From the NCBI RefSeq assembly GCF_004010195.1, contig NW_025214658.1:1-41247 (forward strand): a stretch of 41,247 bases of DNA, written 5' to 3'. A program made the position numbers and the translations under genes. Below, one piece after another: positions 13,491-33,890 of this stretch. The DNA is from Chiloscyllium plagiosum (Eukaryota). Each line of letters starts with the position of its first letter. Positions within the stretch are counted from its first letter, which is position 1. The notes under the pieces were generated by a model that saw only the letters and a list, made by a program, of their open reading frames with translations, was not told the DNA's origin and did no database searches.

Positions 13491-13809
13491 TCTTACGGTA
13501 ATAACTGGAAAGCTGAATCCAAAACCTTCACCAACGATTTTCGGAAAAAGCAGGATAGTTCGGTGGATTAGCGTTCCAAACTTAGATAGTGAGGAAGCAT
13601 GTAGGAGATAATGATTTTGCAATTTTAAACTGAGGGGAGACAGTGATTTATGGTTTTAGATTGTGTAGGACATTCAAAGCGGCCAGAATACTCCGTTGTG
13701 AATATCTATCCTGTACTTTATTACAAAGCCAAGGTCTCTGACAATGAAACCCCAAACACCCGGGAAACATCGCCTCACCTCGTAATCGGATAAAAGACTT
13801 GTGATAAGT

Positions 13810-14165
13810 CTGGTTGAATTTAGAACACAGATGGAAAGCGGGAAGAGTAAATCCAATCCCAAGATCCTGTGCTTAAACAAAGGAGACTACAATAGGATGA
13901 GGCAGGAGTTGGTTAATGTAAACTGGAAGCAAAGACTTTAGGGTGGGACAGTTGACAGACAGTGGAGGAATATCAAAGAATTTTTCGAAGTGCTCAGCAA
14001 AAGTATATATCAGTGAAAAGGAAGGACTGTCGGAAAAGGAGTAATCTGCCATGGGTGGGTAAGGAAATAAGGGACTCTATCAAAATGAAATAGAAGGCAT
14101 ACAAATTGGCAAAGACACCAAGAAAAAAATAGGAGATTAAAAAAACTTCAAAGATCAACAGAAAG
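13810..14165 (+). mobile_element. CR1 ORF2 fragment between the endonuclease and RT domains
   Basis: Encodes LNKGDYNRMRQELVNVNW...QWR...QQKYI...LPWVGKEI. Confidence 0.8.
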
Positions 14166-14317
14166 CTTGATGGGATTGGAGATAAAAAGTGATGAGTAGC
14201 TATCCCCAGGGACAGAATAGCAGTTTACACTGCTAGAGGGAAACCTATTGTTTGGGGAATATATGGCCTCTGTAATTGTTGAAGCACTGAACTGTTACCA
14301 TAGAGGTAATCCTGATC

Positions 14318-14442
14318 AAGTTACAAATCACAGCACACTCCAAAAGCTTGTAATTCCAAATAAACCTGTTGGAGTATAACCTGGTGATGTGTGGTTTCTA
14401 AACATTGTTCACCCCACCCCAACCCCAGCTCCTCCACATCAG
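14318..14442 (+). mobile_element. Penelope-associated terminal repeat fragment (second family)
   Basis: TTCCAAATAAACCTGTTGGA(G/C)TATAACC is shared with 31345-31487. Confidence 0.7.
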
Positions 14443-14794
14443 AATCCTGATAGACAGCCCCTCTGAAACTGAAGCGCCTGTCAGGTACTTGAGGGAGCCA
14501 CGGGGTTGTGGGGGGACGGATGCGTGGTTCAACCACAAAGAGCTGAACTGAACTAGCCTTTTGAACTGCCGTTGTCATGGAGATAATATTGAGAGACAGT
14601 CTGTATTCAAAGTCACAAACCACAAAAGGTAGAAGAATGGGAGCCGTACATTGGACCTGATGCTGCTGAAAGGCATTTTGCACGTAAAATATCCAGGTAA
14701 CTAACATGTCTCATCAATAAAGTCTCAAAGAAGACCTCTCAGAGTTCTGTGCCTAGTTATTCCTATCCAGCAGGGTTCAGGAATATGAGTACAC

Positions 14795-15005
14795 AGCAGT
14801 CAGTCTTCACAGTGGAGAACACGAAAAACATGCGAGTAATTGATAAGGAGACTGAGGAAGGTGAGGACTTTGAAACGACCATTATCATGAAAGAGTTAGA
14901 GCTGGGCAAGTTAATGGAGCTAAGGGTACACAAGTCTCCTTGCCCTAATGGAATTTTTCCCAGTATACCAACAGACCTAGTGGGAAAAATAGCATATACA
15001 CTTAG
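14795..15005 (+). mobile_element. CR1 ORF2 fragment
   Basis: SVFTVENT...LGKLMELRVHKSPCPNGIFP in ORF 14749-15228. Confidence 0.8.
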
Positions 15006-15498
15006 AGTTGTAGAATCCTACAGCAGAGACAGGCGCTTTGGCCCAAACTGGCCCATACTGACCAGAATGTCCATCCATGCTAACCCCATTTCCCTGCACT
15101 TGGCCCATCTGCTTCTGACCCTTTGCTATCCATGTATTTGTCCAAATACCTTTTACATGTTGTTAATGTACCCACCTCAACCACTTCCACTGGCAGCTCA
15201 TTCCATATACATACCATCCTCTGTGTAAAACAGTTGCCCCTCAGCTTCCCTTTTATTCTTTCTCCTCTAACCTTAAACTGATGCCCTCCAGTCCTTGGTT
15301 CCCTGGGAAAAAGACTGAGTGCATTCACCTTACCCATGTCTCTCATGATCTTATACACTTCTGTAAAATATTTCCCGTCTGTTTCCTCTGCTCTAAACAA
15401 AAAGGTCCTCGCTTGTCCAACCTCTCCCTGTAACTCAGACCCCTAAGACCTGGCATCATCCTTGTAAGTTTCTTCTGCACCTTTCCAGTTTAATAACT
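15006..15498 (-). mobile_element. CR1 LINE 3' end (C-terminus of ORF2 and 3'UTR)
   Basis: ORF 15080-15400: EVYKIM...GGHQFKVRGER...FTQRMVCIWNELP. Confidence 0.9.
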
Positions 15499-15499
15499 G

Positions 15500-15970
15500 A
15501 AACCTACACTGCATCCATCACATTTCCCTTGTTTCCCCATGGCGCTGGAACCGACGTGACAACGCCAATGGATTGCAATCCATGATCAATAATTCACTCC
15601 ATTACAACAATTCCATTTTCATAGCTTTCTCCATGATGCAGGAATCCTTTTGTCTTTCTGTTTTCATGGTATATTGCACTTATATAAAACAAATCTGTGG
15701 CGAAACTGTTCCTGGGAAATGTGCCATGATTTTTTAGACTTTCAAAAACCAATGAACTCTCTCTCCACAGTCCCCACGCTAACATGGACTTCGCTGTCTC
15801 AGTACTTTTTTCCAGTCACACTGACATTTGAAATATTCGTCCACGGACAGAATGCACACCTTTCCTTCCAGATGAAAAGGCCAATGATATTCAGATCGGC
15901 ACGGATCCAGTAACAGGAAGTTCAATATTAATTTCTCAACTACAAATCCTCCCTTTCAGTACTCTACAAC
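15500..15970 (-). pseudogene. Heavily decayed ZNF coding-exon relic
   Basis: Acceptor-like TGTAG|AGTACTGAAAGGGAGGATTTG. Shares GCCAATGATATTCAGATC (15880-15897) exactly with 18771-18788. Residual finger-like GGGGACTGTGGA and ATGGAGAAAGC sequence. Confidence 0.6.
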
Positions 15971-15990
15971 AGAGAAAACAGAAGGTGTTG

Positions 15991-16743
15991 GAGATCCTCA
16001 GCAGGTCTGGCAGCATCTGAAATGGTGACAGATGCAGGAAACATTGCAGCCTTGAAGAAGTGTTTAGATGATCACAACAGGCATGTGTGGTTGATGACCA
16101 ATATGGAGAAGATGGAGGCATTGTATTCAACAGTTTTATACCAGAGATTCTGACCCCATTTTATTCTGTATTTCTGAGATTCCGTCTTCTCAGAAGCAGG
16201 CAGGATTGGGAAGCAGTGGAGAATGTAAATGATGTGTGACCTTCCTAGTGAGAGGATTCGAGTGCAGGAGCAGGGATCCCTTTCTGGAAGGGCCTTGGTG
16301 AGACCACATCTGGAGTACTGTGTGTACCTTTGTTCCCCTTTCCCAAGTAAAGCTATCCTGGCTATTGAGAGAGAGAGTAAAGGTGGGTCATCAGCCTGAC
16401 TTCTGGGATGTGAAGATAGTTGAGGGCAGCAGACCCTGGAAGTCAGGGTCTATACAATGTGGTTCTGGAAAAGCGCAGCAGGTCAGGCAGCATCAGAGGA
16501 GCATAAAGATTGATGATTTGATCAGGACCCTTTGTCAGTATCGATGAACAGTCCTGACCCGAAACGTCAACTTTCCAACCCCATCGTATTCATGCTGGTT
16601 ATCAAGCTCTTATTTATTGTAGTCCCACGTTCTGGCACTCAGCGTGTAACTGATATTGTAGTGCTTGGTGTGACTTCTTCAAGGCTGCAGTGTTTCCTGC
16701 ATCTGTCACCATTTCAGATGCTGCCAGACCAGCTGAGGATCTC
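15991..16743. repeat. 71-bp inverted repeat pair (15991-16061 and 16673-16743), 69/71 identical
   Basis: Direct comparison of the arms. The ORF track shows TSSRLQCFLHLSPFQMLPD on both strands. Confidence 0.93.
16462..16578. mobile_element. Penelope-derived fold-back fragment with degenerate hammerhead-like motif
   Basis: CTGGAAAAGCGCAGCAGGTCAGGCAGCATC followed by GATGAACAGTCCTGACCCGAAACGTC. Confidence 0.65.
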
Positions 16744-16919
16744 TAGCACGTTTTGGTGTTATTGCAGATTTCCACCATTTTGCTGAAGCACATGGAGACA
16801 GAGAGCTGTACAGCTACAGGTTTTGTTTACTCTGATTCCTGGAATGTCAGGACTGATTTAGGAACAGGGACTCAATCTTCGTTTAATCCTCCTTTCCTTT
16901 GGCTTTCTGAGCTGCTGAC

Positions 16920-18255
16920 TACATCACTAATATTCTACCGCCCACTCCTTGACCTGAATCTGACCCATCTAAGCCTACACTTTAATTCCCATCCCCCTGC
17001 CAGACTATATACAACCTCACCCATGGGTCTGGCAATAGCCCCCAGCAGGGGATTTCTCCCAGCTCTGCCCAGGGGTAACCAGTCAGGCAGGTACAGGTCC
17101 CACCCAAAAACAGTCCCAGTGCCTGAAGAATTAAAGCCTTCTTTGGTACACCATTTTCCCAGCCACATATCCAGCTGATCTGCCCTCTTATTCATGCTCT
17201 CACTAGCACATGGCACTGGGTGCAAGTCTCGCGGTATTGCATTTCAGGAGCTACATTTTAATGCATCCCTGATCTCCCTATTTCCAGCTTTCAGAACCTC
17301 ATCCCTTTGTTTAGCAATGTCATTGGTATCTATGTGTTCCACAACCACTGACTTTACCCTCCAGCTCCAGAATGTCCTGCAGCCGCTCCATGATATCGCG
17401 CATCCTAGCTCCAGGAGGTAATGTACCATCCTGGATTCATGTCTGTGGCTACAGCAGTGCCCGCCCTAACCCTGACCATTGAATCCGCTGTCACTATAGC
17501 CGTGTGTCCTCTCTTTCCTCCCGCTCTGTGCAGCAGAGCTCTCTGTGGTGTCATGAACCTGGCTGTTGCTGATTTCCCGAGAAACCACCCCACCCATTCC
17601 CAACCTTACAGAATCCCAGGCAGTATACAGTATCTGTTTGAGAAGAGGATGACCACTGGGAACTCCTGCACTCCCTTCCAAAGCCTTTTACTTGATCTGA
17701 TGGTCATTCATTCCCTTTCTTCCTGTGTAACCCTCACCTGTAGTGTGACGGACTCACTAAACGTGCTGTCCATAACATTCTCAGTATCGCAGATGCTCCA
17801 CAGTGAGTCTACTCACTCCTCCAATTCTGAAAAGCAGTTTCCCAGTAACTGCAGATGGGAACCCTTCCTGCACACATAGCGTCCCTTATTTCCCACATTG
17901 TGCAAGAGGAGCACACCACAGATCTGAGGTGTCCTGTCACAACATCTTTCTACATTCACCTAGTTACTCCCATTAAGAGAATTTAAATGAGTGAGCAACC
18001 TTCCTTCACTTTAAACATGTCCATTATAATAACAAAAAAAAATCTTTACTTAAGCTGATATGTCATACTTTAAAACGTAAATACTCCACAGGTATCACTG
18101 ACAAATTGGCTAATCCCATTGGGACTGTGAATTTCTGAAAGGTCTGAACTAAAACTGAGTTTCAGCTTCACCTTCTCCCTGTCTCACGTCACTATTTACA
18201 CCCAACTCCAAAACACTCTCACTGAGCCAAGCAGCACTCTTAGTGCAGCCCTGCC
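16920..18255 (-). mobile_element. 5' portion of a CR1 LINE: 5'UTR and ORF1 (Cys-rich region, coiled coil, SGNH/GDSL esterase), frameshifted
   Basis: AIVTADSMVR (GDS block I), VVVEHIDTNDI (GTND block III) and WDLYLPDWLPL (DGLH block V) in ORFs 17405-17593, 17244-17429 and 16935-17225. Confidence 0.85.
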
Positions 18256-18539
18256 ATTTTCATTGTCTGCTCACACCTACACTTCCCTCAGCCTCCTGTA
18301 CTGTTCCAATGCACCTCAATGGGAGCTCAGGACCAGCATTGTAACTTTCAATTCAGCCCGTTGTAACCCCAGAGTTAAAATGGACTTCAGCAGTTTCTGA
18401 ATGAATAGATAGTTGTCAGAATCTGGAATGTTCCACCTGAAATGGCGCTGGAATTTGAGGCCACAAGGAATTTCAATGAGAAATTTGCAGAGAATTGGAA
18501 GTAGGGAGTTTACAGATTAACATTATAAAGTGGATGATT

Positions 18540-18895
18540 GAGACTAAATCTGACAGTTCCTGCAAAAAGACGAGGTGTAATTTGGATAAATCTGTGCTCT
18601 CTCTCAGGCCAGTACCTCCTTCCACAACTGAAGGGCCAATAGTTGAACACATACCCCAAGAGTGATCCAACCATGGACTTGAACATCTTTCTGATTTTGG
18701 CTTGACAAAAATATCGAAGATAATTTCCCACAGACAGAACAGACAAACCTTTCTCGTTCCACAGTTTAATGCCAATGATATTCAGATCCTGATGACTCCG
18801 CTAACTATAGAAACTTGTTTTTTGAGATCCCAGTCTCAATTAATATCCTATAAAATGAATTCACAAAACAAAGCACACAGTCAGTGCAAGATGAA
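18540..18895 (-). pseudogene. Decayed ZNF coding-exon 5' relic with splice acceptor
   Basis: Minus strand CATTTTATAG|GATATT (exon starts 18847), then CATCAGGATCTGAATATCATTGGC and GTTTGTCTGTTCTGTCTGTGGGAAA (FVCSVCGK). Confidence 0.65.
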
Positions 18896-19224
18896 TAGTG
18901 AAGACAAACACTTCTCTTGGTATGTGTTTGATGTGTAAATGCTCCTCTTCAAATCACCCCGGCCCCACCCAGGAAGAGGACACATGCATGCTCCTTGCGG
19001 TACCTTACCCCAAATAAAGATGGCAGCCATAACCCAGGTCCTCTCACTGCCTGAAGCCCAAGCCATCTTCCCCTTTGCTGCAATTGTGGGACCAAGATTT
19101 TCTAATTCAGACTAACGACATGCACAGCGTCTAAGTAAACCCTCCCAGTCTACACTGATACATTTCATCCGGTTTCTGCTGCCACTCTCCCCTTTACGCC
19201 TCCTGCACACAGCAAGGGTCATCA

Positions 19225-20812
19225 TGTGTCCAGTGACCCTTCCTCAGAACCGATGACAGCTGGGAAAATTAATATCCCTTCAGGAAACAGGCCCTTCGGC
19301 ACAACAATTCCACACCCACTCTCCGAAGTTAATCCCACCCAGACCCATTCCCCTATCCTATTACTCTCCATTTCCCCAGACGAAAGTACATCCCTGAACA
19401 CTTCGGAAAATTTAGCTGGGCTAATTCACTTGGCCTACACATCTTTGGACTGCAGGAGATAGGGGTTAAAGAATAACTAATAGGTGGAGACAGAGCCCAA
19501 AGAGAGACAGGAACATTTGGAAAGACAAAGGAGTGGGAAGTTGGAAAGCTATTAATGGAGGAGACAGGAACCTTCTAGCATCTCAGTGGCGGTGGTGGAA
19601 ATGGTCGCTGATGATCTACATTGTGCCGCAAAAAAGACCCTGAGCTTCCAGTTGCCTGCTCTTTAACACACAAGACTGTTCCCTGTCCAACATCTCTGTC
19701 TCATGCTTCCTGCGGTGTTCCAGTGAAGCTTGATGCAAGCTGGAAGAACACTTCAGAACATACAAAATGGCTTCCTATTTCAAGGACTGCAATTTCCCCT
19801 CACACGTGGTCAACAATGCCCTCCAGTGTATCTCCTCTACTTCCCACACCACTGCCCTTGAACCCCACCCCTCCAAATGCAACAAAGATGGAATCCGACC
19901 ATCCTCACCTTCCACCCAGATACAACGCATCATCCTCTGCTATTTCCACCACCAGATCAAACCACCTGAGATATATTTCCCTCCCCGCTCCTATCAGCAT
20001 TCCACAAAGACAATCCCCTCTGTGACTTCCACGTTAGATCACGCTCCCCACCAACCCATCCTCCACTCCAGGCACCTTCCCTTGCCACTGCAAGAGGTGG
20101 AAAACCTTTGCCCACACCTTCCCCTCACCTCCATCCAAGGCACCACAGAATCCTCCCACATCCAGCATAGATTTCCCTGCCCACCTAAACACCTCATCTA
20201 TTGTGTCCTTTGCTCTCAGGATGCCAAATTGTGGAATATTTCAGGGAACATTTCTGGGACACATGCACCAACCAACCCCATCGCCCTGTGGCCGACCACT
20301 TCAGCTACCCGCCCACACCACCCCCCAACCCCGCCGCAAAATCCGAGCCACCCGACACCTGGAGGAAGAACACCTTGGGAACTTTCAACTACACGGCATC
20401 AAGGTTTCCTCATCTCCCCTCCCCACCTTATCTCAGATTCAACCCTCCAACTCGGCACAACCCTCTTGAACAGTCCCACCTGTCCATCTTCCTTTCCAAT
20501 TATCCATTACACCCTCTCACCACTACCCCCATCTACAACGACCTATTGCCTCTCTAGCTCCACTCCTTTGTCCAACTGCTCTTATCTCTCTCTTTGGACT
20601 CTATCCCCACCTATCATTTACTTCTTAACCCCTACCTTCTGCTTAAAACCGACATTTTTTTCTCAGTAACATCAGTTCCTGAGGAAGCGTCCCTGGATCG
20701 AAAATGCGAACCGATTTCTCTTCACAGATGCTGCCAGATCTGCTGAGCTTTTCCAGTAATTCTGGTTGCTATGTGTGATTTACAGCATCCGCAGTTCTTT
20801 TGGTTCTAATTT
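19225..20812 (+). mobile_element. Penelope-like element remnant: inverted 5' terminal repeat, GIY-YIG endonuclease region and 3' terminal repeat
   Basis: HLIYCVLCSQ and EYFREHFWDT...PVADHF match PLE GIY-YIG motifs. About 19460-19540 is an inverted copy of about 20560-20635, and CTGAGGAAG motifs occur in opposite orientation near 19240 and 20678. Confidence 0.85.
19278..19458 (-). mobile_element. 3' part of an HE1-like SINE nested in the Penelope terminal repeat
   Basis: GGAAACAGGCCCTTCGGC...ACACATCTTTGGACTG, homologous to 6654-6792. Confidence 0.8.
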
Positions 20813-21104
20813 ACCCGGAGTATCTAATTCAGGTCCAGCAGACTGAAACAGTGTTTATCAACCCTCCCAGTCCACACTAACTCCATCTCTCTCCCAATCT
20901 GTGCTGTCTCTCCCACTCCCTTCACACTCACTGAGTCCTCCCTCACAGTGACACTGTCCCTGCAAAGCTGGTGGTCATGTGTTGGCCTGCTGGACCCACC
21001 CCTCATTCACTTACATTGGCCGGAGGACCACGCCAACTCTCCTATTGGTCAATCAGCCAGGCCCCATTGTGACCTGAGTGGTGGGATCCTCCCAGGTGCT
21101 TCAA

Positions 21105-21485
21105 AGGCTGAGGGGTGACCTCAGAGGTTTATAAAATCATGAGGGGCATGGGTAGGATAAATAGACAAGGTCATTTCCCTGGGGTGGGGAGTCCAGAATG
21201 AGAGGGCACGGGTTTAAAATGAGAGGGGAAGAATGTAAAATGGTTGTGAGGGGCAGTTTTTTTTTCCCACTGAGGTTGGTGCGTGTATGGAATCTTCTGT
21301 CAGGAAGTGAAGGATGTTGGTACAATTATACCATTTGGCATCTGGATGGGTATATGAATAGGAAGGGTGCAGAATGATATGTGCCAAGTGTTGGCAAATG
21401 GGTCTAGATTAGGTTGGGATATCTGGTCAGCATGGTCCAGTTTAATCATAGGGTTTATTTTCATGCTGTTCATCTCTACGGCTCT
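21105..21485 (+). mobile_element. CR1 LINE 3' end
   Basis: GDxxEVYKIMRGMGRINRQGHFPG...RGHGFK...WN-like sequence plus 3'UTR. Confidence 0.9.
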
Positions 21486-21529
21486 GCCCCGTGATGAGCT
21501 TCATTATTCACAGTGAATGGGTCAGTATC

Positions 21530-21960
21530 ACAGAGCACAGGGGCTGGAGGCTATTCAGCTCATTGGGGCTGTACTCTCTCTCTCTGGAGATGGTGCCAGT
21601 CAGTCCCAACTCACCTCCCATTTGGACATCGCCCTCCAAATCCTTCCTTAAAAATGTTAAATTTCAAATTTGTTTTGACAATAACTACTGAATCTGCATC
21701 CAGCTGTCTTTCAAACTGTTCCAGATGCTCAGACCTTAGTGAGTAAAATAATCTTCACATTTTTCTTTGCATTATTTGCCAGTTACCTGAAAATAGTTAC
21801 TAAAAATTGTGACGTTAAATTTTTCTCACACTGACTGTCTGTAAATGAAATACCCTGGAAACAAATGAACTCCTTGTCGAAATCACTGTTTAACCTTCTC
21901 AGCTCCAAGGAGAATTGTCTGACCTTCTGCTAACTCTCCATAAAAGAGAAACCTATCTTA
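21530..21960 (-). mobile_element. Very decayed CR1 3' end
   Basis: CACAGGGGCTGGAGGCTATTCAGCTC...CTTAAAAATG...CTTCTCAGCTCCAAGGAGAA pattern. Confidence 0.55.
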
Positions 21961-21976
21961 ATTTTAATTTATTAGT

Positions 21977-22765
21977 GCCATAGAGATGTACAGCACAGAA
22001 ACAGACCCTTCAGTCCAACTTGTCCATGCCGACCAGATATCCTACGTTAATCTCGTCCCATATGCCAGTACTTGGCCCATAGCCTTCTAAACCTTTCCCA
22101 ATCACATATCCAACGAGATGCCTTTTAAATGTTGTAACTGTACCAGCCTCCACACTTTCTCTGGCAGCTCATTCCATACACATACCACGTTCAGCTTGAA
22201 ACTTTGCCCCTAATATCCCTTTTCAATCTTTTCCCTCACGCCTGTGCTTTCTAGTTTTGGACTCACCTAAACATGAATAAGACCCTGGCTGTTTACCCTA
22301 TCCATGCCCCTAACGATTTTATCAACCTCTATGGTCACCCCTCAGCATCCGATTCTCCAGTGAAATCAGCCTCAGCCGATTCAGCCTTTCCCTATAGGTC
22401 AATCTTTCAACCCTGGCAACATCTTTGCATCTTTTCTGAATCCTTTCAAGTTTCACAATATCATTCCAATAGCGGGGAGACCAGGACTGAAAGCAGAATT
22501 CCAGAAGTGGCTGAATGAATGTCCTGTACAGCCGGAAAATGTAATCACAACTCCTGTACTCAATGCACAGACCAATAAAGACAAGTACACCAAACACTTT
22601 CTCCACTATCGTGCCTATCTATGATTCCACTTTCAAGGAACTATGAAACTGCACTCCAAGGTGTCTTTGTTCAGCAACACTCCCCAGGACATCCCATTAA
22701 GTGTATAAGTCCCACCCTAATTTGCTTTTCCAAAATGCAGAACCTCACATTTATCTCACATATGC
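21977..22765 (-). mobile_element. CR1 LINE 3' portion
   Basis: ORF 22322-22606: LYRTFIQPLLEFCFQSWSPRYWNDIVKLERIQKR. Confidence 0.92.
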
Positions 22766-22799
22766 ACATATCTAGGCAGTAGGACAGGCAGAGACATCA

Positions 22800-23420
22800 A
22801 GTAATGGCTTAATTAATAGGGACATAGAGTAGAAGAACAGGAAGTAATTGTTAAATTTGTACAAGGCACCTGTCAGCCCTCAGCTGGAGTATTGTGTGCA
22901 CCACATTTTAGGAAAATATGTGACTACATTGGAGGGAGAGCAGAAGCAATTTACAAGAATGGTTTCAGGAATGAGAAACTTCTGTTATGAAGATAGATTG
23001 AAGAAGTTGGGACTGTTCTTCTTGGCGAGAATGAGGTTGAGAGGTGATCATACTGAGTTTTCTAAAATCACGACTTGAGCTGGACAGAGGAGATAGGAAG
23101 AAACTATATTCATTCATAAAAGGAACAAGGACTAGCATAGATGTGAAGCAATGTGCAATTTTCACTCAGTGATTATTTAGGGTATGGAATGCCATGTCTG
23201 AGATGTTCAAGAGGGGCATTTACCTCAGAGGACTATGGGTCATTAAATATATTCAAGGCTGAGATAGACAGATTTTTAATTAGTGAGGGAATCAAGGGTA
23301 ATGGGGAAAAGGCAGGAAAGTGGAGTGTAGGGTTATCAGATCAACCACAATCTCAGTGAATGGTGCAGCAGACATGATAGGCTGAATGGCCTACTTTTGC
23401 TCCTGTATCTAATGATCTCA
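22800..23420 (+). mobile_element. CR1 LINE 3' portion, probably composite
   Basis: ORF 22848-23078 LYKAPVSPQLEYCV...YEDRLKKLGLF, ORF 23153-23359 LNIFKAEIDRFL, then a 3'UTR. Confidence 0.88.
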
Positions 23421-23611
23421 GGTGATTGAATATGTTCAGCGTACAGTGAGACAGACTTTTTTAGTGTGTCCATGTGAGGTGGACATCATTAATCTTCAAG
23501 GACATCACGTTTTCAGAAGAGGGGTCAGGAAAGAGATTGGACAAGGCTCGACGGGCTGACTGATCTCCTACTGCTTATATCCTGATTAGGTCGGACACTG
23601 GCTACTCCTAC

Positions 23612-23824
23612 CTGAGCCTAGTGTTGGCTTCTGTGGGAGCTTGTTCCGTGAATCTTCTTGATACCCGTGGTCTAGAGATGTTTTGGCCAGATGCTCCATG
23701 TTCTCCTCTAGGCTGGGCAGTTGTTGTCTCTCTAGAGAATCTGCCATGCCCGTCCCTTTGGGTACTTGCCCAGATTGCAGCTTTGAACCTTGACACGGCG
23801 GTGGGTCAGGTGGAGGAGGCAGGT
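23612..23824 (-). CDS. ROBO2: Single internal coding exon (213 nt, phase 1-1) of a Roundabout-2-like gene, CC3 proline-rich cytoplasmic segment. Orphan in this window
   Basis: Polypyrimidine tract and acceptor CTTGCTTCTCTTCCTTTTATTTCCTGAAG|AC, donor CAG|GTAGGA. Only the phase-1 frame is open: (D)LPPPPDPPPCQGSKLQSGQVPKGTGMADSLERQQLPSLEENMEHLAKTSLDHGYQEDSRNKLPQKPTLGS. Colinear with the recalled vertebrate ROBO2 segment DLPPPPDPPPGQG...SLERQ..SSLED...ARTSLE...QEDIRKAPHKQGVGS. Confidence 0.82.
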
Positions 23825-23979
23825 CTTCAGGAAATAAAAGGAAGAGAAGCAAGTCAAAGATAGACTGAGATATTCTGCCACTCCAGCCTCCCTTTCATCA
23901 AGCTGAGGGCCATCAGTGGTGGAGAACTGTAATCCTATAAACCTGTCCCCTTGCCAGGGAGGATTGCAGCAGTGGAGGG

Positions 23980-24552
23980 GTTGAACAGGACATTGGTTAG
24001 TCCACTTTTGGAACGTTGCGTACAAATCTGGTCTCCCTCCTATTGGAAGGATGTTGTGAAACTTGAAAGGGTTCATAAAAGATTTACAAGAACGTTGCCA
24101 GGGTTGGAGGATTTGGGCTAGGCTGGGGGTTGAATAGAGGTTGAATAGATTGGGGCTGTTTTCCCTGTAGCGTCGGAGGCTGAGAGGTGATCTTATCTAT
24201 GTACATAAAAACATGAGGTGCATGGAAAGGATAAATCGACAACGTCTTTTCCCTGGCGTGGGAGATCCCAGCACTAGAGGGCATAGTTTTATGGTATGAG
24301 GGGATTCTCAAGAGACTTGAGAATCAACGTTTTCACACAGAGGGTGGTACGATTATGGAATGAGCTGCCAGAGGAAGTGGTGGAGGCCATTACGATTGTA
24401 ACATTTAAAAGACATCTTCATGTGATTATGAATAGGAAGGATATGGGCAGGGTGCTGACAGGTGGGACGAGATTGCATTGGGATGTCTGATCAGCATGTA
24501 CTGGTTGGACCGACGGGTCTCTGTTTCTGTGCTGTCCATCTATGACTCTTTG
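23980..24552 (+). mobile_element. CR1 LINE 3' portion
   Basis: RTLVSPLLERCVQIWSPSYWKDVVKLERV and ORF 24296-24490 FTQRVVRLWNELPEEVVEA. Confidence 0.92.
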
Positions 24553-24559
24553 ACCTTCC

Positions 24560-25214
24560 AGTCAATTCCGTATCCAAACAGTTAGTTTCGCCAGAACCTG
24601 CTAACCAGTGTGTTATGTGAAACCTTGTGTCTTTCTCAAGTTCAAGTTAATGATTTCAATGCACAAAGCCATGCTGACTCTCCCTAATCATTTCTTGCCT
24701 TTACAATGATATGTAAATCCTGTCCCTGAGAATCCCTTCCAACAACTTCTCTGCCACTGACTTCAGGCTCACCGGTCTATAGTTCCCTTTCCTTTCCACT
24801 TTTCTCAAATAATGGCATCAGTCTTCCAGCACCTCACCTGTGGCGTTCGATGGTACAAATATTTCAGTGAGGGTCCCAGCAAAAGCTTCCCTAATTACCC
24901 ACAAAGTTCTGGGATGCACCTGATCAGATTCCAGGGATTTATCCACCTTTATGCATTTTAAGACATCCAGTACCTCCTCCTCTGTAATATGTACACTTGC
25001 CAAGTTATCATATTTATTTCCCCAACTTCTCTAACTTCCATATCCCCTTTCAGTATAAACTGACATGAAATACTTACAGAATCTCTCCCACCTCCTGCTG
25101 TTCCATAGACAGTCTTGTTGATCTTTGAGGGTCGCTATTCTCTGCCTAGTTATTCTTTTGTCTTTAGTGTATTTGTAGAATTTCTTTGGATTCTCCTTAA
25201 ACCTATTTCCCAAA
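24560..25214 (-). mobile_element. CR1 ORF2 fragment, running into a gap
   Basis: ORFs 25031-25213 (KENPKKFYKY) and 24818-25003 (IKVDKSLESDQVHPRTL). Confidence 0.88.
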
Positions 25215-25749
25215 NNNNNNNNNNNNNNNNNNNNNNNNNNNNNNNNNNNNNNNNNNNNNNNNNNNNNNNNNNNNNNNNNNNNNNNNNNNNNNNNNNNNNN
25301 NNNNNNNNNNNNNNNNNNNNNNNNNNNNNNNNNNNNNNNNNNNNNNNNNNNNNNNNNNNNNNNNNNNNNNNNNNNNNNNNNNNNNNNNNNNNNNNNNNNN
25401 NNNNNNNNNNNNNNNNNNNNNNNNNNNNNNNNNNNNNNNNNNNNNNNNNNNNNNNNNNNNNNNNNNNNNNNNNNNNNNNNNNNNNNNNNNNNNNNNNNNN
25501 NNNNNNNNNNNNNNNNNNNNNNNNNNNNNNNNNNNNNNNNNNNNNNNNNNNNNNNNNNNNNNNNNNNNNNNNNNNNNNNNNNNNNNNNNNNNNNNNNNNN
25601 NNNNNNNNCTCCACAATGTCCTGCTTAACCTCTGTCACATTTTCCTCCAAAAAACATTAATCAATCATGTATCATCTATTCTAATATCACCTTCTCTGAC
25701 CTGGTTTCTATTGTGGCTTGTCATATTCCTATATTACTCGTCTGTGGTC

Positions 25750-26105
25750 TACATGACAGAAAACGGTTTTGTGGTCCATTGGGTTTATGCTGTAAAGAAA
25801 TCTCCCAGCTAACTATTTTAATCCCATTTTCCAGCACAGAGCCCATAGACCTGTCAGCCTTGGCCTTGCAAGTGTGTTCCTAAATAGATTTTAAACGCCA
25901 TCGGGATTTCTGTCTCTCACTCTCTTCCAGACAGTGAGGTTTAATGCAACTGTTGCTCTATGCTATCACCCACAGGGTTCAGAGCAGCTGGGTCTGTGCG
26001 AACCACAGATCACCCACACATTGTGAAGGATGGCAGGGTCCCCGAGAGGGGGAATAGGAGATTAACCAGGATGGTTCAAAGAATGGGGGATTTTAGTTGC
26101 AGAAT
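25750..26105. mobile_element. Decayed CR1 fragments (3' end on minus, ORF2 piece on plus)
   Basis: ATCCCATTTTCCAGCAC.. tail pattern and ERGNRRLTRMV-like frame. Confidence 0.55.
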
Positions 26106-26199
26106 TTGTGGGGCTTTTTTAAACATTAATTGTTCACGTGACATGTGTATTAGCAACACACATCAAGAATAATCATCCACAATTAATGGACTCTCCTTT

Positions 26200-26315
26200 T
26201 CAACCTCTCCCCTTGCCTGCGTTGTGGTAATATTTCAGGTTAACCACTACCAGACATCTCTCTCTAATGAGAGAGCAGTCCTATGGTCGGGTTGAACAAT
26301 GCTGACTTGATCTTT
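26200..26315 (+). mobile_element. 3' end of an unclassified shark interspersed repeat (SINE-like)
   Basis: CCTTGCCTG...CAGGTTAACCACTACCAGACATCTCTCTCTAATGAGAGAGCAGTCCTATGGTC, recalled as a recurrent elasmobranch repeat. Contains a CTCTCTC-TAAT-GAGAGAG hairpin. Confidence 0.45.
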
Positions 26316-26499
26316 TACACAGTGATGCCACTGTGCCTCGAGGGTGGGGAGAGGGAATGCTGAAGGTGGTGGATGGGAAACCACTCAGGCACAGTGCTTT
26401 ATCCTGGAGGATGTTCACTTTCTTTAATATTGCTGGGGTGGGGGGGGGGGGGGTGAAGTGCACTGATGCAGGCAAGTGGAGAATGTTCCAACACAATCC

Positions 26500-26750
26500 T
26501 GATGTGTACCTTATAGAGAGCAAACAGACATTGGGGAATCAGGGATTTGGGGAAACTGAGATTGTTCTTCTTGTAGCAAAGGAAATTTGGGGAGCTGTGA
26601 CAAAGCGGTTTACTAAAGTTACACGTTATAATAATAAACCTTAAACCCATTACAGGACACATGTTGCAGGTTTGGGAAGATCTATTGAGAGGATGGTTTG
26701 ATTCAAAGGAGAACTTTTATTCAGCAAATTGTGTTGATCTGGAACACAAT
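26500..26750 (+). mobile_element. Decayed CR1 ORF2 C-terminal fragment
   Basis: GAAACTGAGATTGTTCTTCTTGTAGCAAAGG...GAGAACTTTTATTCAGC...GATCTGGAAC. Confidence 0.55.
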
Positions 26751-26759
26751 ACTCTCACA

Positions 26760-26900
26760 CAATATGAATATCCAGGTCCTGATGAATGGAGTAATTCTGT
26801 CAGAGTTTGGCGTTACAATGACTGAGATTACCATCTGAATATCTGCCTGTAATACAAGTTTATAAAATCTGTCACTGTCAGTTCAAGTTTGAAATTCATA
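26760..26900 (-). pseudogene. ZNF coding-exon 5' relic with splice acceptor, truncated by CR1
   Basis: Minus strand GAACTGACAGTGACAGATTTTATAAACTTGTATTACAG|GCAG (exon starts 26846) then CTGACAGAATTACTCCATTCATCAGGACCTGGATAT, homologous to the 18.8 kb and 9.4 kb copies. Confidence 0.65.
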
Positions 26901-27059
26901 CAATCACCTCCTCCTGGCCGAGGATGACTGTACACATTACCCCTGGTGGAGGTTAGCAGCCACTTAAAGGGCAGATCTATGTGGGTTTCTATGAGTTCCA
27001 CCTTGGGACTTCATGTGACTGAACATGGGACAGAATGTCCCAAGATTCAGTGAGATATG

Positions 27060-27275
27060 GAGAGCAGGATTTGCTTCCTTTTCTTTCCTTCCGTTCTGCC
27101 GCTGTGCCTCCTCAATAAGACATGGGGTGTGAAAGGCTCATGCAGCTCGATGGGCAAGATGTCTCCATTCTGACCAAAGGGCAGCAAGCTCCTCCCAGTC
27201 ATGAAACAGAGTATCCCTGAAAAATCGCAACTGCGCATGCTTCCCACTGCCCAGTGCTCACAGTACATGTTTCGA
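27060..27275 (-). promoter_or_regulatory. Promoter or first-exon relic with NRF1-like site
   Basis: TGCGCATGC at 27232-27240 (GCATGCGCAGT on minus, as at 37973-37983), about 400 bp upstream of the ZNF acceptor relic. Confidence 0.4.
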
Positions 27276-27309
27276 ATAATGAGGGGGGAAATCTCCTAGA
27301 AAAGGCATA

Positions 27310-27850
27310 ACAGGAAAGTTCCAAAAGGATTATAAACGGTTTACACAGAGATATTCACAGGAAACGTGGGCAACAAGTTGGCAAATAGCGTATAACTTGG
27401 GATAAACTGTAGAAAGCTGCACCACAAAGGGACTGGGGGAAAATGAGCAGGAAACACAGAAAGCTAGCACACAGTTACAACATGGAATCAGGAAGGGGAA
27501 TGGAATGTTGTCCATTATTTCAAAGAGTTTGCAATATCACAGTTTGGAGTATATACCTTGGGGAAAATAAACTAATGGCGAGTGAGACCACATCTGGAGT
27601 AACGTGAACAGATTTGGTCGCTTTAGTTAACGAAATAGAGCAGTTTATTGGAGGCATTTCAGACAAGATCCATTGGGATGATCCCGTTTTGAAGGGATTA
27701 TCCTGTAAGCAAAAGCTGAATAAGTTGGGAATCTACTCACTGGACTTTGGAAGAATGAGAGGTGATCTCTTTGAAACATGCAGGATTCTGTCGAGGTTTG
27801 ACAGGGTAAATATGGAGAGGATGTGTCCCATTACGGGTGAGTCCTGAACC
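27310..27850 (+). mobile_element. Decayed CR1 ORF2 C-terminal fragment
   Basis: ORF 27614-27847: LKGLSCKQKLNKLGIYSLDFGRMRGDLFETCRIL. Confidence 0.8.
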
Positions 27851-27929
27851 AGATTCTGGGTCAGTCGCGGAATCAAGGGTTCTGTTTCGGATTTGACAAT
27901 TTAAAGGCAACACCGACACAGGTTAGGGT

Positions 27930-28390
27930 TTCAGTAGCAATGGAGTTGGGGTGAGAAGGAGACAACCAACGTTTCAGAGATTGGAATTCCTGATGCTTGT
28001 GATTGTGTAGAGGTCTGATCAGAAGGTCACCATGGGGTCAGATTGAAAGCAATATTGTGAAGAATGTAGTTCTGCCTCAGACACTTCCCAGTGAGAGGGA
28101 GGGGCACAGCAGTAAGGGAAATGAATTTGGAATAGCAACCGAAGGCAATGGGTTTAACAATTACAGTGTTTCATTGGAGTGAATTGCAGCTAATCGAAGC
28201 ATGGCAAGCAGTTTGATAACTGAGTTAGAGTGGAGTAATGGAGACGGATGATGGGGAGGGAGAGCTGGACATTATCAGTGCACATGTGAAACCTAACACT
28301 GTGCTTTTGGGCGATGTTACCTCCTGACAGTATGTAGGTGAGAAACAGGACGGACCAAGGATATATCCTGGAGGGACACCAAATACAATG
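27930..28390 (-). mobile_element. Old L2-type LINE RT fragment
   Basis: Minus strand GVPPGYILGP...FHMCTDNVQLSL corresponds to GVPQGSILGP...FHxYADDTQLYL. Confidence 0.75.
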
Positions 28391-28839
28391 AATTCAGAAA
28401 GGAAAGGGAGAGTGGAGATGGAGCAGGATTTTCCAATGATGGTGAGGTCAAATATTAGGTTTCAGCAGAATGGGAGAGAAGGACATAACCAGAAACGAGA
28501 GACAGACAGATCATGGAACCGGAAAGAAGCAGAGGCAGCTGATCGGATTGTCTCAATGTTATTGACAGAGAAACTCCAAGTGCTCCTCACTCTTGTTTTT
28601 GGAAGGGAGGATGGAGGAGACAGGATAATGGACATTTTTTTATTTCCAAAACAATAAAGAAAACCTGTGATAGTGATTCTAAAAATAAGTGAACAAACCT
28701 GTCGTATTTATCATTTATCAAGAATATTAAAATATACAACTGAAGTTCAGGTTGGAATCCCAAATCGGTAGAGGGTGGCTCTGAAGTCAAGAATAAAATA
28801 ACTGGAATGAAGAATCTACTGTTTGACATGGAACCATTG

Positions 28840-29880
28840 GGGATGTTTTTCTGCCATTGACAATGTCCTTGAGGGAAAGAACCGGCCCATCAAGTCACTC
28901 ATTGTATGAATCACTGCACAGTCTCAACAAAGGAATGAAACTGGATGGACAATATTAATCTACCAATGCACTAGCAAATACAATCACGCGATCGGCCCTC
29001 TTGACCCTGCAACTTCCGCCTCACTGTGGGCCAACAACAGCAGCAGAACTGTACTCCAGCCCAATCTGAAATCTCATGGTCTGATATCCCCCACTCAACC
29101 ATTAACATCAAACCAGGGGAATCAACCCTGGTTCAATGGTGAATGCAGGAGGACATGCCAGGCATACCTAAAACTGAGGTGCCAACCTGGTGCAGCAACC
29201 AAACCTGCATGCCAAACAGCACAAGCAACACCAAATAGAACTAAGTGATCTCATAACCAATAGATTCGATTTGAGTTCTGCAGTTCTGCAACACCGAGTC
29301 AAGAATAGTAATGGACAATTAAACAACTCACTGGAGAAAGCCTCACAGATATCCCCGCCCTTACCGATGGAGGGGTCTCACACATTCATGCAACAGATAA
29401 GAGCACAGCATTAGCAGCGAGTTTCAGCCAGCAGTGCCAAGTGGATGAGCCTTCTCCATTGGTCCCTAACATCACAGATATGAATCGACTTGGTTGAAAA
29501 CTGATTTCAAATCAGATCAAGAAATGGATAAGCAGTGTAAAGGTATGGGCCCTGCCAATATTCCGGCAATAATACTGTTGGCTGTGCTGCAGAACCTGCT
29601 GCCCACCAAGGCAAGTGCTGCTCCAGCACTGGCACCTACTGACTTTGTGGAACATTGCTCAGGGATGTTCCAACACAAAAACACACGGCAGATCCAATTC
29701 TCAACCAATTCCCCTCCATCAGTCTACACTCGCTCAGCAGTGAAGTGATGGAAGGTGTCATCAACAGTGCTATCAAGCAACTGCTCAACAATAACCTGCT
29801 CAGCGATGGGTTCTGCCAGGGCCACTCAGCTCCTGAGCTTGTTATAGACTTGATTCACAAACTGACAAACAGCTGAATGA
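28840..29880 (+). mobile_element. ORF2 fragment of second CR1-group LINE family
   Basis: QPWFNGECRR, GMGPANIPAI, FPSISLHSLSSEVMEGVINSAIKQLLNNNLLSDGFCQGHSAPEL. Confidence 0.8.
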
Positions 29881-29934
29881 GGGGAGGATGACAGGCCAGA
29901 CCCCCTCCAAAACCACTATTTCGACTCCAGTGAT

Positions 29935-30420
29935 ATCAACTGACCTCAGCACAGTCTCAGCTCATTTGCTGAAACTCTCATTTTTCCCTTTTGTTAACTC
30001 TAGATTTCATTATCTAAACCGACTCCTGGCCAGCATCCCACATTCACCCTCCCGATAATCTCAAGAATATTGAAAACTCTACTGCCGAAGTGCTCACTTG
30101 TACCAAAACTTGGTTATCAATCAAAAGACTCCCATTTATAAGCAACAACAATTTACTTTCGCACCTCTGAATTAATTCCTGGCTGTAAGCATTCCTATCT
30201 CCCTGCACCACACACCCTTTCATATCTCATTAACTCATTTTAGTTCAGACTCTCAATGATGTGTTTATTTTTTAGTTCATCTGTGTGACTGTTTCTATAA
30301 AATCCAAGGGAACATGGTCCGGAATCCCCACTCTAACCCTCTAAGATCTACTTTCTTCCTAAAGGCATTCTTGAAAAACTGCTTCACTGGACACAATATG
30401 CTCCATCTGTAGCCTTATGT
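29935..30420 (+). mobile_element. Old L2-type LINE 3' fragment
   Basis: AETL...FVNSRFHY...LLASIP...IENSTAEVLTCTK corresponds to L2 HAFVTSRLDY...QNSAARVLT. Confidence 0.65.
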
Positions 30421-30850
30421 CAAAAGTTATCAATAATATTTTTGTGAAATTAAAACCATGATGATTTGTAGAGATATCTTCTACTCTTCAATATCACTGA
30501 GTGAATAATCTGTAATGTCTCTTACCCAACCACGTTGTGGGAGCACCTTCACCATACAAACTGCAGCTGTACAAGGAAGTCAAACATCACCCTCTCCACA
30601 GGCAACAAGGCTTTGGTATTGATCACTGGTTTCTGTGGAAGGAGAAATACACAGTTGATGTTACAGGGAGTGCAATATGAATTACAGGGAATAAAAATGG
30701 TGCAGAATTTGACTGTCAGAAATTGAAAGAAAAAGCATTCGCTTATTGGAAAAAAGAATTCTTGACTGTCAAAGATATTGTGGAAAAAATAACCTGATAA
30801 TGGAACAGCATATGGTCAGGAGCCGGGCAGCAGTGGACAATTCATTTACA

Positions 30851-30940
30851 TTCCTGAAGAAGGGCTTATGCCCGAAACGTTGATTTTCCTGTTCCTCGGA
30901 TGGTGCCTGGCCTGCTGTGTTTTTCCAGCTCTACATTTTT
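30851..30940 (+). mobile_element. 90-nt Penelope-derived insertion with hammerhead-like core and 13-bp TSD
   Basis: CAATTCATTTACA at 30838-30850 and 30941-30953. Core CTGAAGA-A-GGGC-TTAT-GCCC-GAAACGTT. Confidence 0.85.
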
Positions 30941-31099
30941 CAATTCATTTACAAAACAGCTGTGAAAGTAATAGTAAAATACTATACAGTGCAAAAATAC
31001 ACCCATGAGAGACTGAGGAAGCTAGATAATGAACAAGTGGACATCAGAGAACCCAGAGGTGAACCCGAGCAGAGTTCACCTTTATGATCCCACAGTCAA

Positions 31100-31290
31100 A
31101 GATGTCTGGCACAAAGATGTTGGACAGAAACAGACTTCTTCGGTCCAACCTATGCCAACCAGATATACTAACCTAATCTATCTAAATTAAATCCTATCTG
31201 CCACTCCTCAACCCATTGGCGCATCTGATCAATATCCCATTGTATTCTGAGATACCCTTCTTCATTGTCCACAATACCAACTGTTGGCTG
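31100..31290 (-). mobile_element. CR1 fragments (3' end and RT piece)
   Basis: GAAACAGACTTCTTCGGTCCAACC...CTAATCTA tail, homologous to 21998-22050. Confidence 0.65.
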
Positions 31291-31344
31291 TAGCTTGTGC
31301 ACTGCTTCGTGGCTTTTGTTGCTGTTTCTCAGTTACAAGAGTGA

Positions 31345-31487
31345 GGGACAAAGTTAAAAATCACACAACCACCTGATGAAGGACCAGCAAAGTAGTGCTT
31401 CCAAATAAACCTGTTGGACTATAACCAGATGTTATGTGGATTTTAATTTTGTCCATCCTAATCCAACACCGGCACCTCCAAGTCACG
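31345..31487 (+). mobile_element. Penelope-associated terminal repeat (second family) with degenerate CTGATGA motif
   Basis: ACAAAGTTAAAAATCACACAAC at the start is partly inverted against GTTATGTGGATTTTAATTTTGT. Homologous to 14318-14442. Confidence 0.7.
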
Positions 31488-31504
31488 AGTGATGGAGGCA
31501 TGCA

Positions 31505-31847
31505 TAACATAAGAATAAAAAATCTAGGAAAAGGAGAAGGCCGTCCTGCCTTTCGAGCCTGCTCTACCATTCAATAAGATCAAGGCTGATCATTTTGTGG
31601 ATGCATTTATCCACGTTCTCACTGTATTCCTTAATTAATTATTTCTTTTTTTGAAAAACTAACTTAGCTTTAAAAACGTTCATTGAACTTGCATCAACTA
31701 CTTCCCTGGGCAATGAATTACACAGATGTCAAGAAGTTCCTTTTCAATTCAGTCCTAAATTTGCTGCCTTTCCATTGGTCCGCCGCTGACATCAATCACT
31801 TCTTCGGTCCAACCTGTCCATGACAACCATATTTCCTAACCTAATCT
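31505..31847 (-). mobile_element. CR1 3' ends (two fragments) next to a gap
   Basis: AGGAGAAGGCCGTCCTGCCTTTCGAGCCTGCTCTACCATTCAATAAGATC and CTTCGGTCCAACCTGTCCATG. Confidence 0.75.
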
Positions 31848-32700
31848 NNNNNNNNNNNNNNNNNNNNNNNNNNNNNNNNNNNNNNNNNNNNNNNNNNNNN
31901 NNNNNNNNNNNNNNNNNNNNNNNNNNNNNNNNNNNNNNNNNNNNNNNNNNNNNNNNNNNNNNNNNNNNNNNNNNNNNNNNNNNNNNNNNNNNNNNNNNNN
32001 NNNNNNNNNNNNNNNNNNNNNNNNNNNNNNNNNNNNNNNNNNNNNNNNNNNNNNNNNNNNNNNNNNNNNNNNNNNNNNNNNNNNNNNNNNNNNNNNNNNN
32101 NNNNNNNNNNNNNNNNNNNNNNNNNNNNNNNNNNNNNNNNNNNNNNNNNNNNNNNNNNNNNNNNNNNNNNNNNNNNNNNNNNNNNNNNNNNNNNNNNNNN
32201 NNNNNNNNNNNNNNNNNNNNNNNNNNNNNNNNNNNNNNNNNNNNNNNNNNNNNNNNNNNNNNNNNNNNNNNNNNNNNNNNNNNNNNNNNNNNNNNNNNNN
32301 NNNNNNNNNNNNNNNNNNNNNNNNNNNNNNNNNNNNNNNNNNNNNNNNNNNNNNNNNNNNNNNNNNNNNNNNNNNNNNNNNNNNNNNNNNNNNNNNNNNN
32401 NNNNNNNNNNNNNNNNNNNNNNNNNNNNNNNNNNNNNNNNNNNNNNNNNNNNNNNNNNNNNNNNNNNNNNNNNNNNNNNNNNNNNNNNNNNNNNNNNNNN
32501 NNNNNNNNNNNNNNNNNNNNNNNNNNNNNNNNNNNNNNNNNNNNNNNNNNNNNNNNNNNNNNNNNNNNNNNNNNNNNNNNNNNNNNNNNNNNNNNNNNNN
32601 NNNNNNNNNNNNNNNNNNNNNNNNNNNNNNNNNNNNNNNNNNNNNNNNNNNNNNNNNNNNNNNNNNNNNNNNNNNNNNNNNNNNNNNNNNNNNNNNNNNN

Positions 32701-33890
32701 CTCCAACCAAAGAGTATGACTTTACATTTATGAACATAATATTCCACTTGCCAAACCATTGCCCACTCACTCAATGTATCTATGTCCCTCTGCAAATTTT
32801 CCCAGTCCTCCGCACACATTGTTCTGCAACTCATCTTAGTGTCATATGCAAACTTTGACACCCTATATGTGGTCCCCAACTCCAAATCATCGGTATCAAT
32901 TCTAAATAATTGCAGTCCCAACACTGATCCTAGAGGCACACAATTAGTTACTGATTGCCAGCCAGAATAAGGCTTATTTGTCCCCACTCTGCTTCCTGTT
33001 AGTCATCCAATCTTCTAACCATGCTAACACTCTATCCCATGCACTCTTAGTTAATGCAACAGCCTCTTGCACAGCACCTTGTTGAAGGTCTTTTGGAAAT
33101 CCAGGTACACCGCATCCACTGGATCCCCGTTGTCCACCTTGCTCGAAATATCTTCATACAATTCCAAAAGATTTGTCAAGCATGATCTGCCCTTCATGAA
33201 TCCATGCTCTCTCTGCCCAGTGGGACAATTTCTATCCAGATTCCCTGCTATTTCTTCCTTGATAATAAACCCAAGCATCTTTCCAACTACAGAGAATAAA
33301 CTAACTGGTGTAGAATTCCCTATCTTTTGTCCACCGCCTTTCCTTACAGTCCTTCCTTTTCACTGGAATATGCCTTTGCTAAGCACTTCCTAAAATGTCT
33401 TTGAAAATCTTTTACTGCTCATCAACTGTCCCATCATAAAATCTTTGTTTCCAGTCTACGTTATCCAGGTTCTCACTCATTCTATTTTAGTTCCTCGTGT
33501 TCAAGCACAGGATCAATGTATTAGATTTTATCTTCACACTCTCCATATGTATTCTAACTTCAACCATACAGTGATCACTTCTTTCAAGAGGATCCCTAAC
33601 TCTGAGGTTATTAATTAAACCTGTCTCATTGCACAGGGGCCAGATCTTGGATAGCTTGCACCTTGTCGGTTCAATTTCATTCTGTTCAAAAAGACTATCG
33701 TGGATACACTTAATGAACTCCTCAAGGCTACCCTGACTGAGCTGGTTCGACCAATCTACATGTAGATTAAAATCACCCATGGTAATAGACATATCATTTT
33801 TACAGGCTTTAGTTATTTCTTTGTTAATTGCCCATCCCAATGTGATGTTATTATTTGGCCTGCACACTATGCTTATCAGTGATTTTCTTG
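32701..33890 (-). mobile_element. CR1 ORF2 (endonuclease and RT) with internal deletions
   Basis: MGDFNLHVDW, SDHCMV, HGFMKGRSCLTNLLELYE, VPLGSVLGLQLF, KFAYDTK. Confidence 0.93.

What the first reader, a model, noticed from the sequence alone, without database searches (positions are those of the whole stretch)
23612..23824. Orphan, splice-intact ROBO2 CC3 exon inside a decaying zinc-finger cluster
Seen: a strong acceptor and donor on the minus strand enclose 213 nt that are open only in phase 1-1. The peptide starts (D)LPPPPDPPP and keeps SLERQ, AKTSLD and QED..K.P.K...GS. Known (from recall): vertebrate ROBO2 has a phase-1-1, alternatively spliced exon with these motifs in this order, encoding the CC3 SH3-binding motif. 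Seen: only about 150 bp and 25 bp of unique flank separate it from CR1 pieces, and I recognised neither neighbouring ROBO2 exon in the non-gap sequence about 17 kb upstream or 23 kb downstream. Everything coding around it is decayed while this exon is intact. Inference: it is a duplicated or transduced exon available for exon shuffling, or the true ROBO2 locus with long introns that host ZNF relics, or a misassembly.
Basis: partly seen in the sequence, partly recalled or inferred. Interest (0 to 1): 0.8.

Follow-up and report, generated by a model that had tools for sequence, protein, structure and literature searches.

The report
Misplaced copy of shark ROBO2 exon
The exon is a real piece of the shark's normal ROBO2 nerve-guidance gene, which sits intact on a chromosome, and the copy in this window is a near-identical 1.26-kb patch that was most likely pasted into a repeated region during genome assembly, not a newly moved exon.

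Summary
The exon is real: 213 nt, AG/GT, open only in phase 1-1, 100% identical to shark ROBO2. It is not an orphan. The native copy lies on chromosome C12 (81,016,460-81,016,672) between its neighbouring exons. The window is a whole unplaced 41-kb scaffold. Window 22757-24013 (1,257 bp) equals C12 with one mismatch, so the exon is intact because the copy has no measurable age. The patch sits in a multi-copy repeated unit and replaces about 758 bp that sister copies keep (10 of 11 measured). One edge is blunt. The other is a 12-bp shared word in a CR1-like repeat. In three public runs (two samples), contigs from the patch run past the blunt edge into other sequence; none of the 24 displayed pieces bridges it, although one sample holds this unit copy's private flank. 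The scaffold has another N-free exact duplication. Best reading: gap-filling chimera (0.78). Rival: a real, very recent repair-templated copy in the sequenced animal (0.18), with a weak junction motif in its favour. Three look-ups of earlier scan findings returned nothing and a fourth only unrelated notes.

The parts
23612..23824 (-). ROBO2 exon, 213 nt, phase 1-1; identical to G000:C12:81016460-81016672
22757..24013 (-). 1,257-bp tract equal to C12:81016271-81017527 (exon, 189 bp of upstream intron, 855 bp of downstream intron); it stops about 825 bp short of the next exon
22965..22965 (.). Only mismatch to C12; the window's letter is also on public contigs that run on past the blunt edge, so likely an allele of the native locus
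   Evidence: records 5 and 20 (0 other letters); native origin of their overhang is inferred
22756..22757 (.). Blunt junction: no shared base, no N; 13 of 13 fetched sister loci continue in unit sequence here
24002..24013 (.). Switch point: 12 bp shared exactly by C12 and the unit; base 24001 is C12-type (9 of 9 aligned sister copies differ)
24014..24304 (+). Unit's own CR1-like piece, only about 80% like the CR1-like piece upstream of the native exon (CR1 label recalled)
2733..41247 (.). Host: one member of a dispersed multi-copy unit (85-97% identity; matches on C7, C8, C18, C21, C25, C45 and many unplaced contigs)
40877..41124 (+). Exact 124-bp head-to-tail duplication without N, single-copy in 3 of 3 sister copies; second likely false join on this scaffold
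7952..8236 (-). Decayed C2H2 zinc-finger relic
9822..10046 (+). Decayed C2H2 zinc-finger relic, inside a stretch shared by dozens of unit copies

Best explanation
A 1,257-bp stretch of the native ROBO2 locus on C12, exon included, is present a second time in this unplaced scaffold, most likely as an assembly chimera made during gap filling. Shown: the tract equals C12 bar one base, replaces about 758 bp of a repeated unit, starts in a 12-bp word shared by two similar CR1-like pieces and ends bluntly. Inferred: the scaffold had a gap inside that CR1-like piece; local extension from the 24 kb side slipped from the unit's repeat into the similar repeat upstream of the ROBO2 exon, ran on through unique ROBO2 sequence and was butted against the contig on the other side. 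On this reading the animal has one copy of the exon, working normally in ROBO2.
For: Window is an entire unplaced scaffold; exon has exactly two matches in the assembly. Identity 1,256 of 1,257. Replacement, not insertion: 752-773 bp in 10 of 11 sister intervals against 1,245 bp here, whereas three of five other private inserts examined in sister copies map as clean insertions with 5-8 bp overlaps. In runs X1, X2 (one sample) and X5 (another), contigs stop matching exactly at 22757 and run on for 90, 533 and 26 other letters; loose ends at 22756 carry the unit's own continuation; the 681-nt exon contig of X1 and X2 matches up to exactly 24013 and ends one letter later. X1 and X2 also hold exact contigs over 24174/24179-24357, spanning a 4-bp deletion absent from all 10 other sequences aligned, so that sample carries this unit copy or a near twin, yet shows no link to ROBO2. 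The single mismatch is on contigs that leave the window at the blunt edge. The same scaffold holds an N-free exact 124-bp duplication that 3 of 3 sister copies lack. The assembly is gap-rich (45 N-runs in 486,871 bases, none under 18) and fragmented at ROBO2 itself: three ROBO2-like exon matches lie on unplaced C101801 and C59189.
Against: There is no N at the blunt join. The exact overlap at the other edge is only 12 bp, short for a k-mer join. A 7-nt word spans the blunt junction and repeats 11 nt away, as in polymerase-theta-type repair; chance rate 41 of 1,600 and 159 of 3,331 in two nulls (a post hoc test). Public contigs drop rare variants and may prune short links into high-depth repeats; only 24 of 56,211 pieces, 24 of 631 loose ends and 15 of 51 joints were displayed. 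No raw DNA reads of the assembled animal were seen. I did not show a second foreign patch of this kind elsewhere in the assembly.
Confidence: 0.78

Rival explanations
1. A real, very recent templated replacement in the sequenced animal or its family. A break in one unit copy would be resected; one end would invade the similar CR1-like piece in the ROBO2 intron on C12 through the 12-bp shared word, copy 1.25 kb including the exon, release, and be end-joined to the other end with loss of about 758 bp. The exon would be a passenger with no host transcript.
For: One-sided microhomology in 80%-similar repeats plus a blunt far end fits one-ended synthesis-dependent repair (established mechanism, recalled). 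A junction-spanning 7-nt repeat occurs at a chance rate of about 0.03-0.05. No N at either edge. Near-zero divergence fits a new polymorphism too.
Against: No displayed contig bridges the blunt junction in two samples, one of which holds this unit copy's flank. The right edge coincides with the end of a public contig. The scaffold is unplaced and carries another N-free exact duplication.
Confidence: 0.18
2. A fixed, selected exon-shuffling event: the proline-rich ROBO2 exon was moved by a LINE or by duplication and is spliced into a zinc-finger or other transcript of the unit.
For: Splice signals are intact and the exon is symmetric (phase 1-1), so it could be included in frame.
Against: No target-site duplication or tail; host sequence is lost. 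The tract lies on the 5' side of the CR1-like piece, not behind its 3' end (orientation read from RT-like frames). No divergence, so no selection can be inferred. No intact zinc-finger frame: one complete C2H2 finger in the window and none in the 16 sister stretches scanned. None of 13 sister loci has the tract at this edge. X21 raw RNA reads (about 2% of the run) gave no depth on the exon, and no displayed joint uses 23612 or 23824.
Confidence: 0.02
3. The window is the true ROBO2 locus, with long introns that host zinc-finger relics.
For: None beyond the exon's identity.
Against: C12 holds the exon with its 177-nt upstream exon 7,070 bp away and its downstream exon 1,679 bp away, splicing in frame to match P0002. 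The window's flanks belong to a multi-copy unit.
Confidence: 0.01

Closest known systems
ROBO2 (roundabout homolog 2) of Chiloscyllium plagiosum, P0002, and orthologues P0003-P0010
   Same: Exon peptide 70 of 70 identical to P0002; same position between the same neighbouring peptides in all nine proteins found.
   Different: The window holds only this exon and 1,044 bp of its introns, with no other ROBO2 exon.
False duplication / gap-fill chimera in fragmented assemblies (concept recalled; false duplication is a listed term in 10.1101/2020.05.22.110833, of which I saw only the search listing)
   Same: Near-100% copy of a placed locus on an unplaced scaffold, edges in repeats, no bridging contig displayed.
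   Different: Usual false duplications are whole haplotype copies with their own flanks; here a 1.26-kb patch sits in unrelated repeat. Raw-read proof is missing.
Templated insertion / one-sided ectopic gene conversion (SDSA, MMBIR, polymerase-theta end joining; recalled)
   Same: Short homology at one end, blunt other end with a small repeat motif, loss of target sequence.
   Different: No independent molecule shows the junctions.
LINE-mediated 3' transduction (exon shuffling; recalled)
   Same: An exon with intron flanks next to LINE pieces at a new place.
   Different: No target-site duplication, no tail, wrong side of the LINE piece, host sequence replaced.

Membership tests
ROBO2 exon | Significant, best match to ROBO2 proteins | tested here: met
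   9 of 9 hits named ROBO2 or ROBO2-like, best 100% identity
ROBO2 exon | Native copy flanked by neighbouring ROBO2 exons in frame | tested here: met
   (on C12, not in the window)
ROBO2 exon | Motif is CC3, the SH3-binding motif | not tested
   Mapping of the proline motif to CC3 is recalled. Passages of PMC12308364 say Robo CC3 binds srGAP and Abl but give no sequence. Pfam 0 families; no relevant solved structure.
ROBO2 exon | Alternatively spliced | not tested
   One search listed 3 papers; passages read in two say nothing on this exon. The proteins were found with the exon, so they cannot show skipping.
Orphan exon | No native copy among its neighbours, or a diverged second copy kept intact | tested here: not met
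   Native copy on C12; 213 of 213 identical
LINE 3' transduction | Target-site duplication, no loss at target | tested here: not met
   About 758 bp replaced; blunt edge
LINE 3' transduction | Cargo lies behind the LINE 3' end and ends in a tail | tested here: not met
   Tract abuts the 5' side of the CR1-like piece; no tail at 22757 (read from sequence, CR1 label recalled)
Assembly chimera | Near-100% identity to a placed locus, on an unplaced scaffold | tested here: met
Assembly chimera | Edges in repeats or at contig ends | tested here: met
   (exon contig matches to 24013 and ends one letter on)
Assembly chimera | No read spans the junctions in the source animal | tested here: inconclusive
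   contigs only, truncated tables, source animal unknown
Assembly chimera | Read depth not raised over the tract | not testable with these tools
   Contig depth is not copy number (tool text)
Repair-templated insertion | Microhomology or repeat motif at junctions | tested here: met
   12 bp; 7-nt motif at chance 0.026-0.048
Repair-templated insertion | Junctions present on real molecules | tested here: inconclusive
   none displayed

The most novel reading that the evidence does not exclude
The patch is real: a brand-new, repeat-guided repair event copied a complete, splice-competent, symmetric ROBO2 signalling exon from chromosome C12 into a dispersed multi-copy unit. That would catch the first step of exon shuffling as a polymorphism in a shark and show that 80%-similar CR1-like pieces with a 12-bp exact word suffice to template copying between loci.
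Probability: 0.18. Interest if true: 0.35.

Novelty: not a real feature. Interest (0 to 1): 0.07.

Why it matters
As an artefact it is a caution: this assembly can hold N-free patches of real genes inside repeats, so lone intact exons on its unplaced scaffolds need an identity check against the chromosomes first. If real, it would be a clean example of repair-templated exon copying between loci, but with no host gene and no sign of use.

Tried and rejected
Pfam scan of the peptide: 0 families. PDB sequence search: only chance hits, best E 0.16. dN/dS: undefined, no differences in the exon. Run search: no RNA holder listed; not used as evidence. X21 raw RNA: 88 reads laid, all in repeats, none on the exon, about 2% of the run read; too thin to judge expression. 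Contig depths over the tract (4-10) against others (8-14) were too noisy and are not copy numbers. Search for more foreign patches: two window stretches missing from the first sister set (5010-5822, 8771-10212) proved to be unit sequence; window 1-2090 was not searched; five private inserts in sister copies were examined, three look like ordinary insertions, one has flanks mapping far apart across an N gap and one has a small loss; none was searched for a 100% source. So a systematic artefact is not shown. Paper 10.1101/2022.03.08.483466 (passages) concerns long-read gap fillers and was not used as support. Literature searches on gap-filler chimeras and templated insertions were seen as listings only. 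Earlier scan findings: nothing near, by words or by sequence; the genome-wide list was unrelated. Rows dropped: 4 of 13 sister loci had no alignable right side and were left out.

Full report
Observation. Window 23612-23824 on the minus strand is a 213-nt exon with a pyrimidine tract, AG and GT; the three frames have 4, 1 and 0 stops, giving phase 1-1. The 70-residue peptide finds 9 proteins among 79 candidates, all named ROBO2 or ROBO2-like, from sharks and rays. The best, P0002, is 100% identical and lies on a contig of 88,215,405 bases, the length of C12 in this genome. The identity is settled. The labels 'CC3' and 'alternatively spliced' are recalled. Passages of PMC12308364 confirm that Robo CC3 binds srGAP and Abl but give no sequence; passages of 10.1101/2025.03.07.642111 and PMC10084454 say nothing on splicing of this exon.

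The native locus. The window is a whole unplaced scaffold, G000:C101253, and the exon region has two matches in the assembly: here and C12:81,016,294-81,016,744. On C12, tblastn of P0002 finds a run of 16 matches in order across 95 kb, and only this exon in the window. The native exon is at 81,016,460-81,016,672, with a 177-nt exon 7,070 bp upstream and the next exon 1,679 bp downstream; joined, they read in frame as P0002 does. The 'true locus' option is refuted.

The copied tract. Window 22757-24013 equals C12:81,016,271-81,017,527 at 1,256 of 1,257 bases; the one difference is at 22965. Beyond 24013 the match drops to about 80% for 290 bp, between two different CR1-like pieces (repeat label recalled from RT-like frames). 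The exon is therefore intact because it is an undiverged copy; its contrast with the decayed surroundings says nothing about selection.

The host. Nearly the whole window belongs to a dispersed multi-copy unit at 85-97% identity, on C7, C8, C18, C21, C25, C45 and many unplaced contigs. Fetched sister copies cover 33,156 of 39,358 non-N bases; two of the remaining stretches are unit sequence too (with 46 and 49 matches from 40 scored candidates each). The zinc-finger relics are a minor, decayed part. Where the window has 1,245 bp of ROBO2 sequence, 10 of 11 measured sister intervals have 752-773 bp of repeat and one has 477. So this is a replacement without target-site duplication. Three of five other private inserts examined map as clean insertions with 5-8 bp overlaps.

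Junctions. At 22756|22757 there is no shared base and no N; 13 of 13 sister loci carry on in unit sequence. At the other edge, base 24001 is C12-type and differs in 9 of 9 aligned sister copies (4 of 13 had no alignable side), so the switch lies in 24002-24013, a 12-bp exact word. A 7-nt word spans the blunt junction and recurs 11 nt away; the chance rate was 41 of 1,600 and 159 of 3,331. This is a weak, post hoc point for real repair.

Public data. Of 24 runs listed, the best holds 0.62 of the words of 22300-24500. Four were laid: contigs of X1 and X2 (one sample) and X5, and raw RNA reads of X21. In all three contig sets a record stops matching at exactly 22757 and continues for 90, 533 or 26 other letters, and loose ends at 22756 show the unit's usual continuation. 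The 681-nt exon contig of X1 and X2 matches 23334-24013 and ends one letter later. Records of X1 and X5 carry the window's letter at 22965, so the single mismatch is likely an allele of the native locus. X1 and X2 hold exact contigs across the 4-bp deletion near 24305 that none of the 10 other sequences has, so that sample has this unit copy or a near twin without a displayed link to ROBO2.

Assembly context. There are 45 N-runs in 486,871 fetched bases, none shorter than 18. The scaffold also has an exact 124-bp tandem duplication without N at 40877-41124, single in 3 of 3 sister copies. ROBO2 itself is fragmented: matches to internal cytoplasmic exons fall on unplaced C101801 and C59189 (a strict search, counts are a floor). 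A published assembly of the species named used short reads with Platanus, KGF and GapCloser (10.1101/602136; passages and the assembly section read; supplements not seen). Whether G000 is that assembly was not established; the paper gives 3.85 Gb and G000 has 3.56 Gb.

Mechanism and verdict. Most likely (0.78) a gap filler extended from the unit's repeat into the similar repeat beside the ROBO2 exon and the extension was butted to the next contig; the anatomy is shown, the process inferred. Against it: no N, a short overlap, the junction motif, and no second foreign patch shown. A real, brand-new repair-templated replacement (0.18) has the same anatomy and only raw or long reads can separate the two. 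Functional exon shuffling (0.02) and true locus (0.01) fail their tests. I make no claim about what is or is not in print beyond. Novelty: not a real feature. Interest 0.07; 0.35 if the copy proves real.

Noticed in passing
window 2733-41247; sister copies e.g. G000:C8:4.70-4.75 Mb, C8:20.00-20.04 Mb, C25:53.69-53.72 Mb, C18:72.00-72.02 Mb, C45:5.99-6.00 Mb, C7:114.46 Mb, C21:9.50 Mb: A long (tens of kb) repeat-rich unit with zinc-finger relics is dispersed in dozens of copies at 85-97% identity over at least six chromosome-scale contigs and many unplaced ones; the C18 and C25 copies lie within 1 Mb of the contig end. No complete C2H2 finger was found in the sister stretches scanned.
   Followed up: partly
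window 40877-41124: Exact 124-bp head-to-tail duplication with no N, single-copy in three sister copies at 95-97.5%; likely an unmerged overlap.
   Followed up: yes
G000:C101801:506-673 and 11551-11847; C59189:1032-1271: ROBO2-like cytoplasmic exons (76-84% to P0010) lie on unplaced contigs, and P0002 lacks the matching peptide found in orthologues, so the C12 gene model looks incomplete.
   Followed up: partly
G000:C12:81161471-81163023 (-); C35:29645986-29646213: More distant ROBO-like matches (43-59%); the C12 pair faces ROBO2 tail to tail, as ROBO1 does in other vertebrates (recalled, not tested).
   Followed up: no
window 6629-6939: 311-bp insert absent from the fetched sister copies, with 90-96% matches in the C12 stretch; likely a young SINE-like insertion.
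   Followed up: no
G000:C25:53707511-53709808; C8:4731703-4733569; C8:20014775-20015123: Private inserts in sister copies with 5-8 bp target overlaps, likely retrotransposon insertions after the unit multiplied; usable to order the copies.
   Followed up: partly
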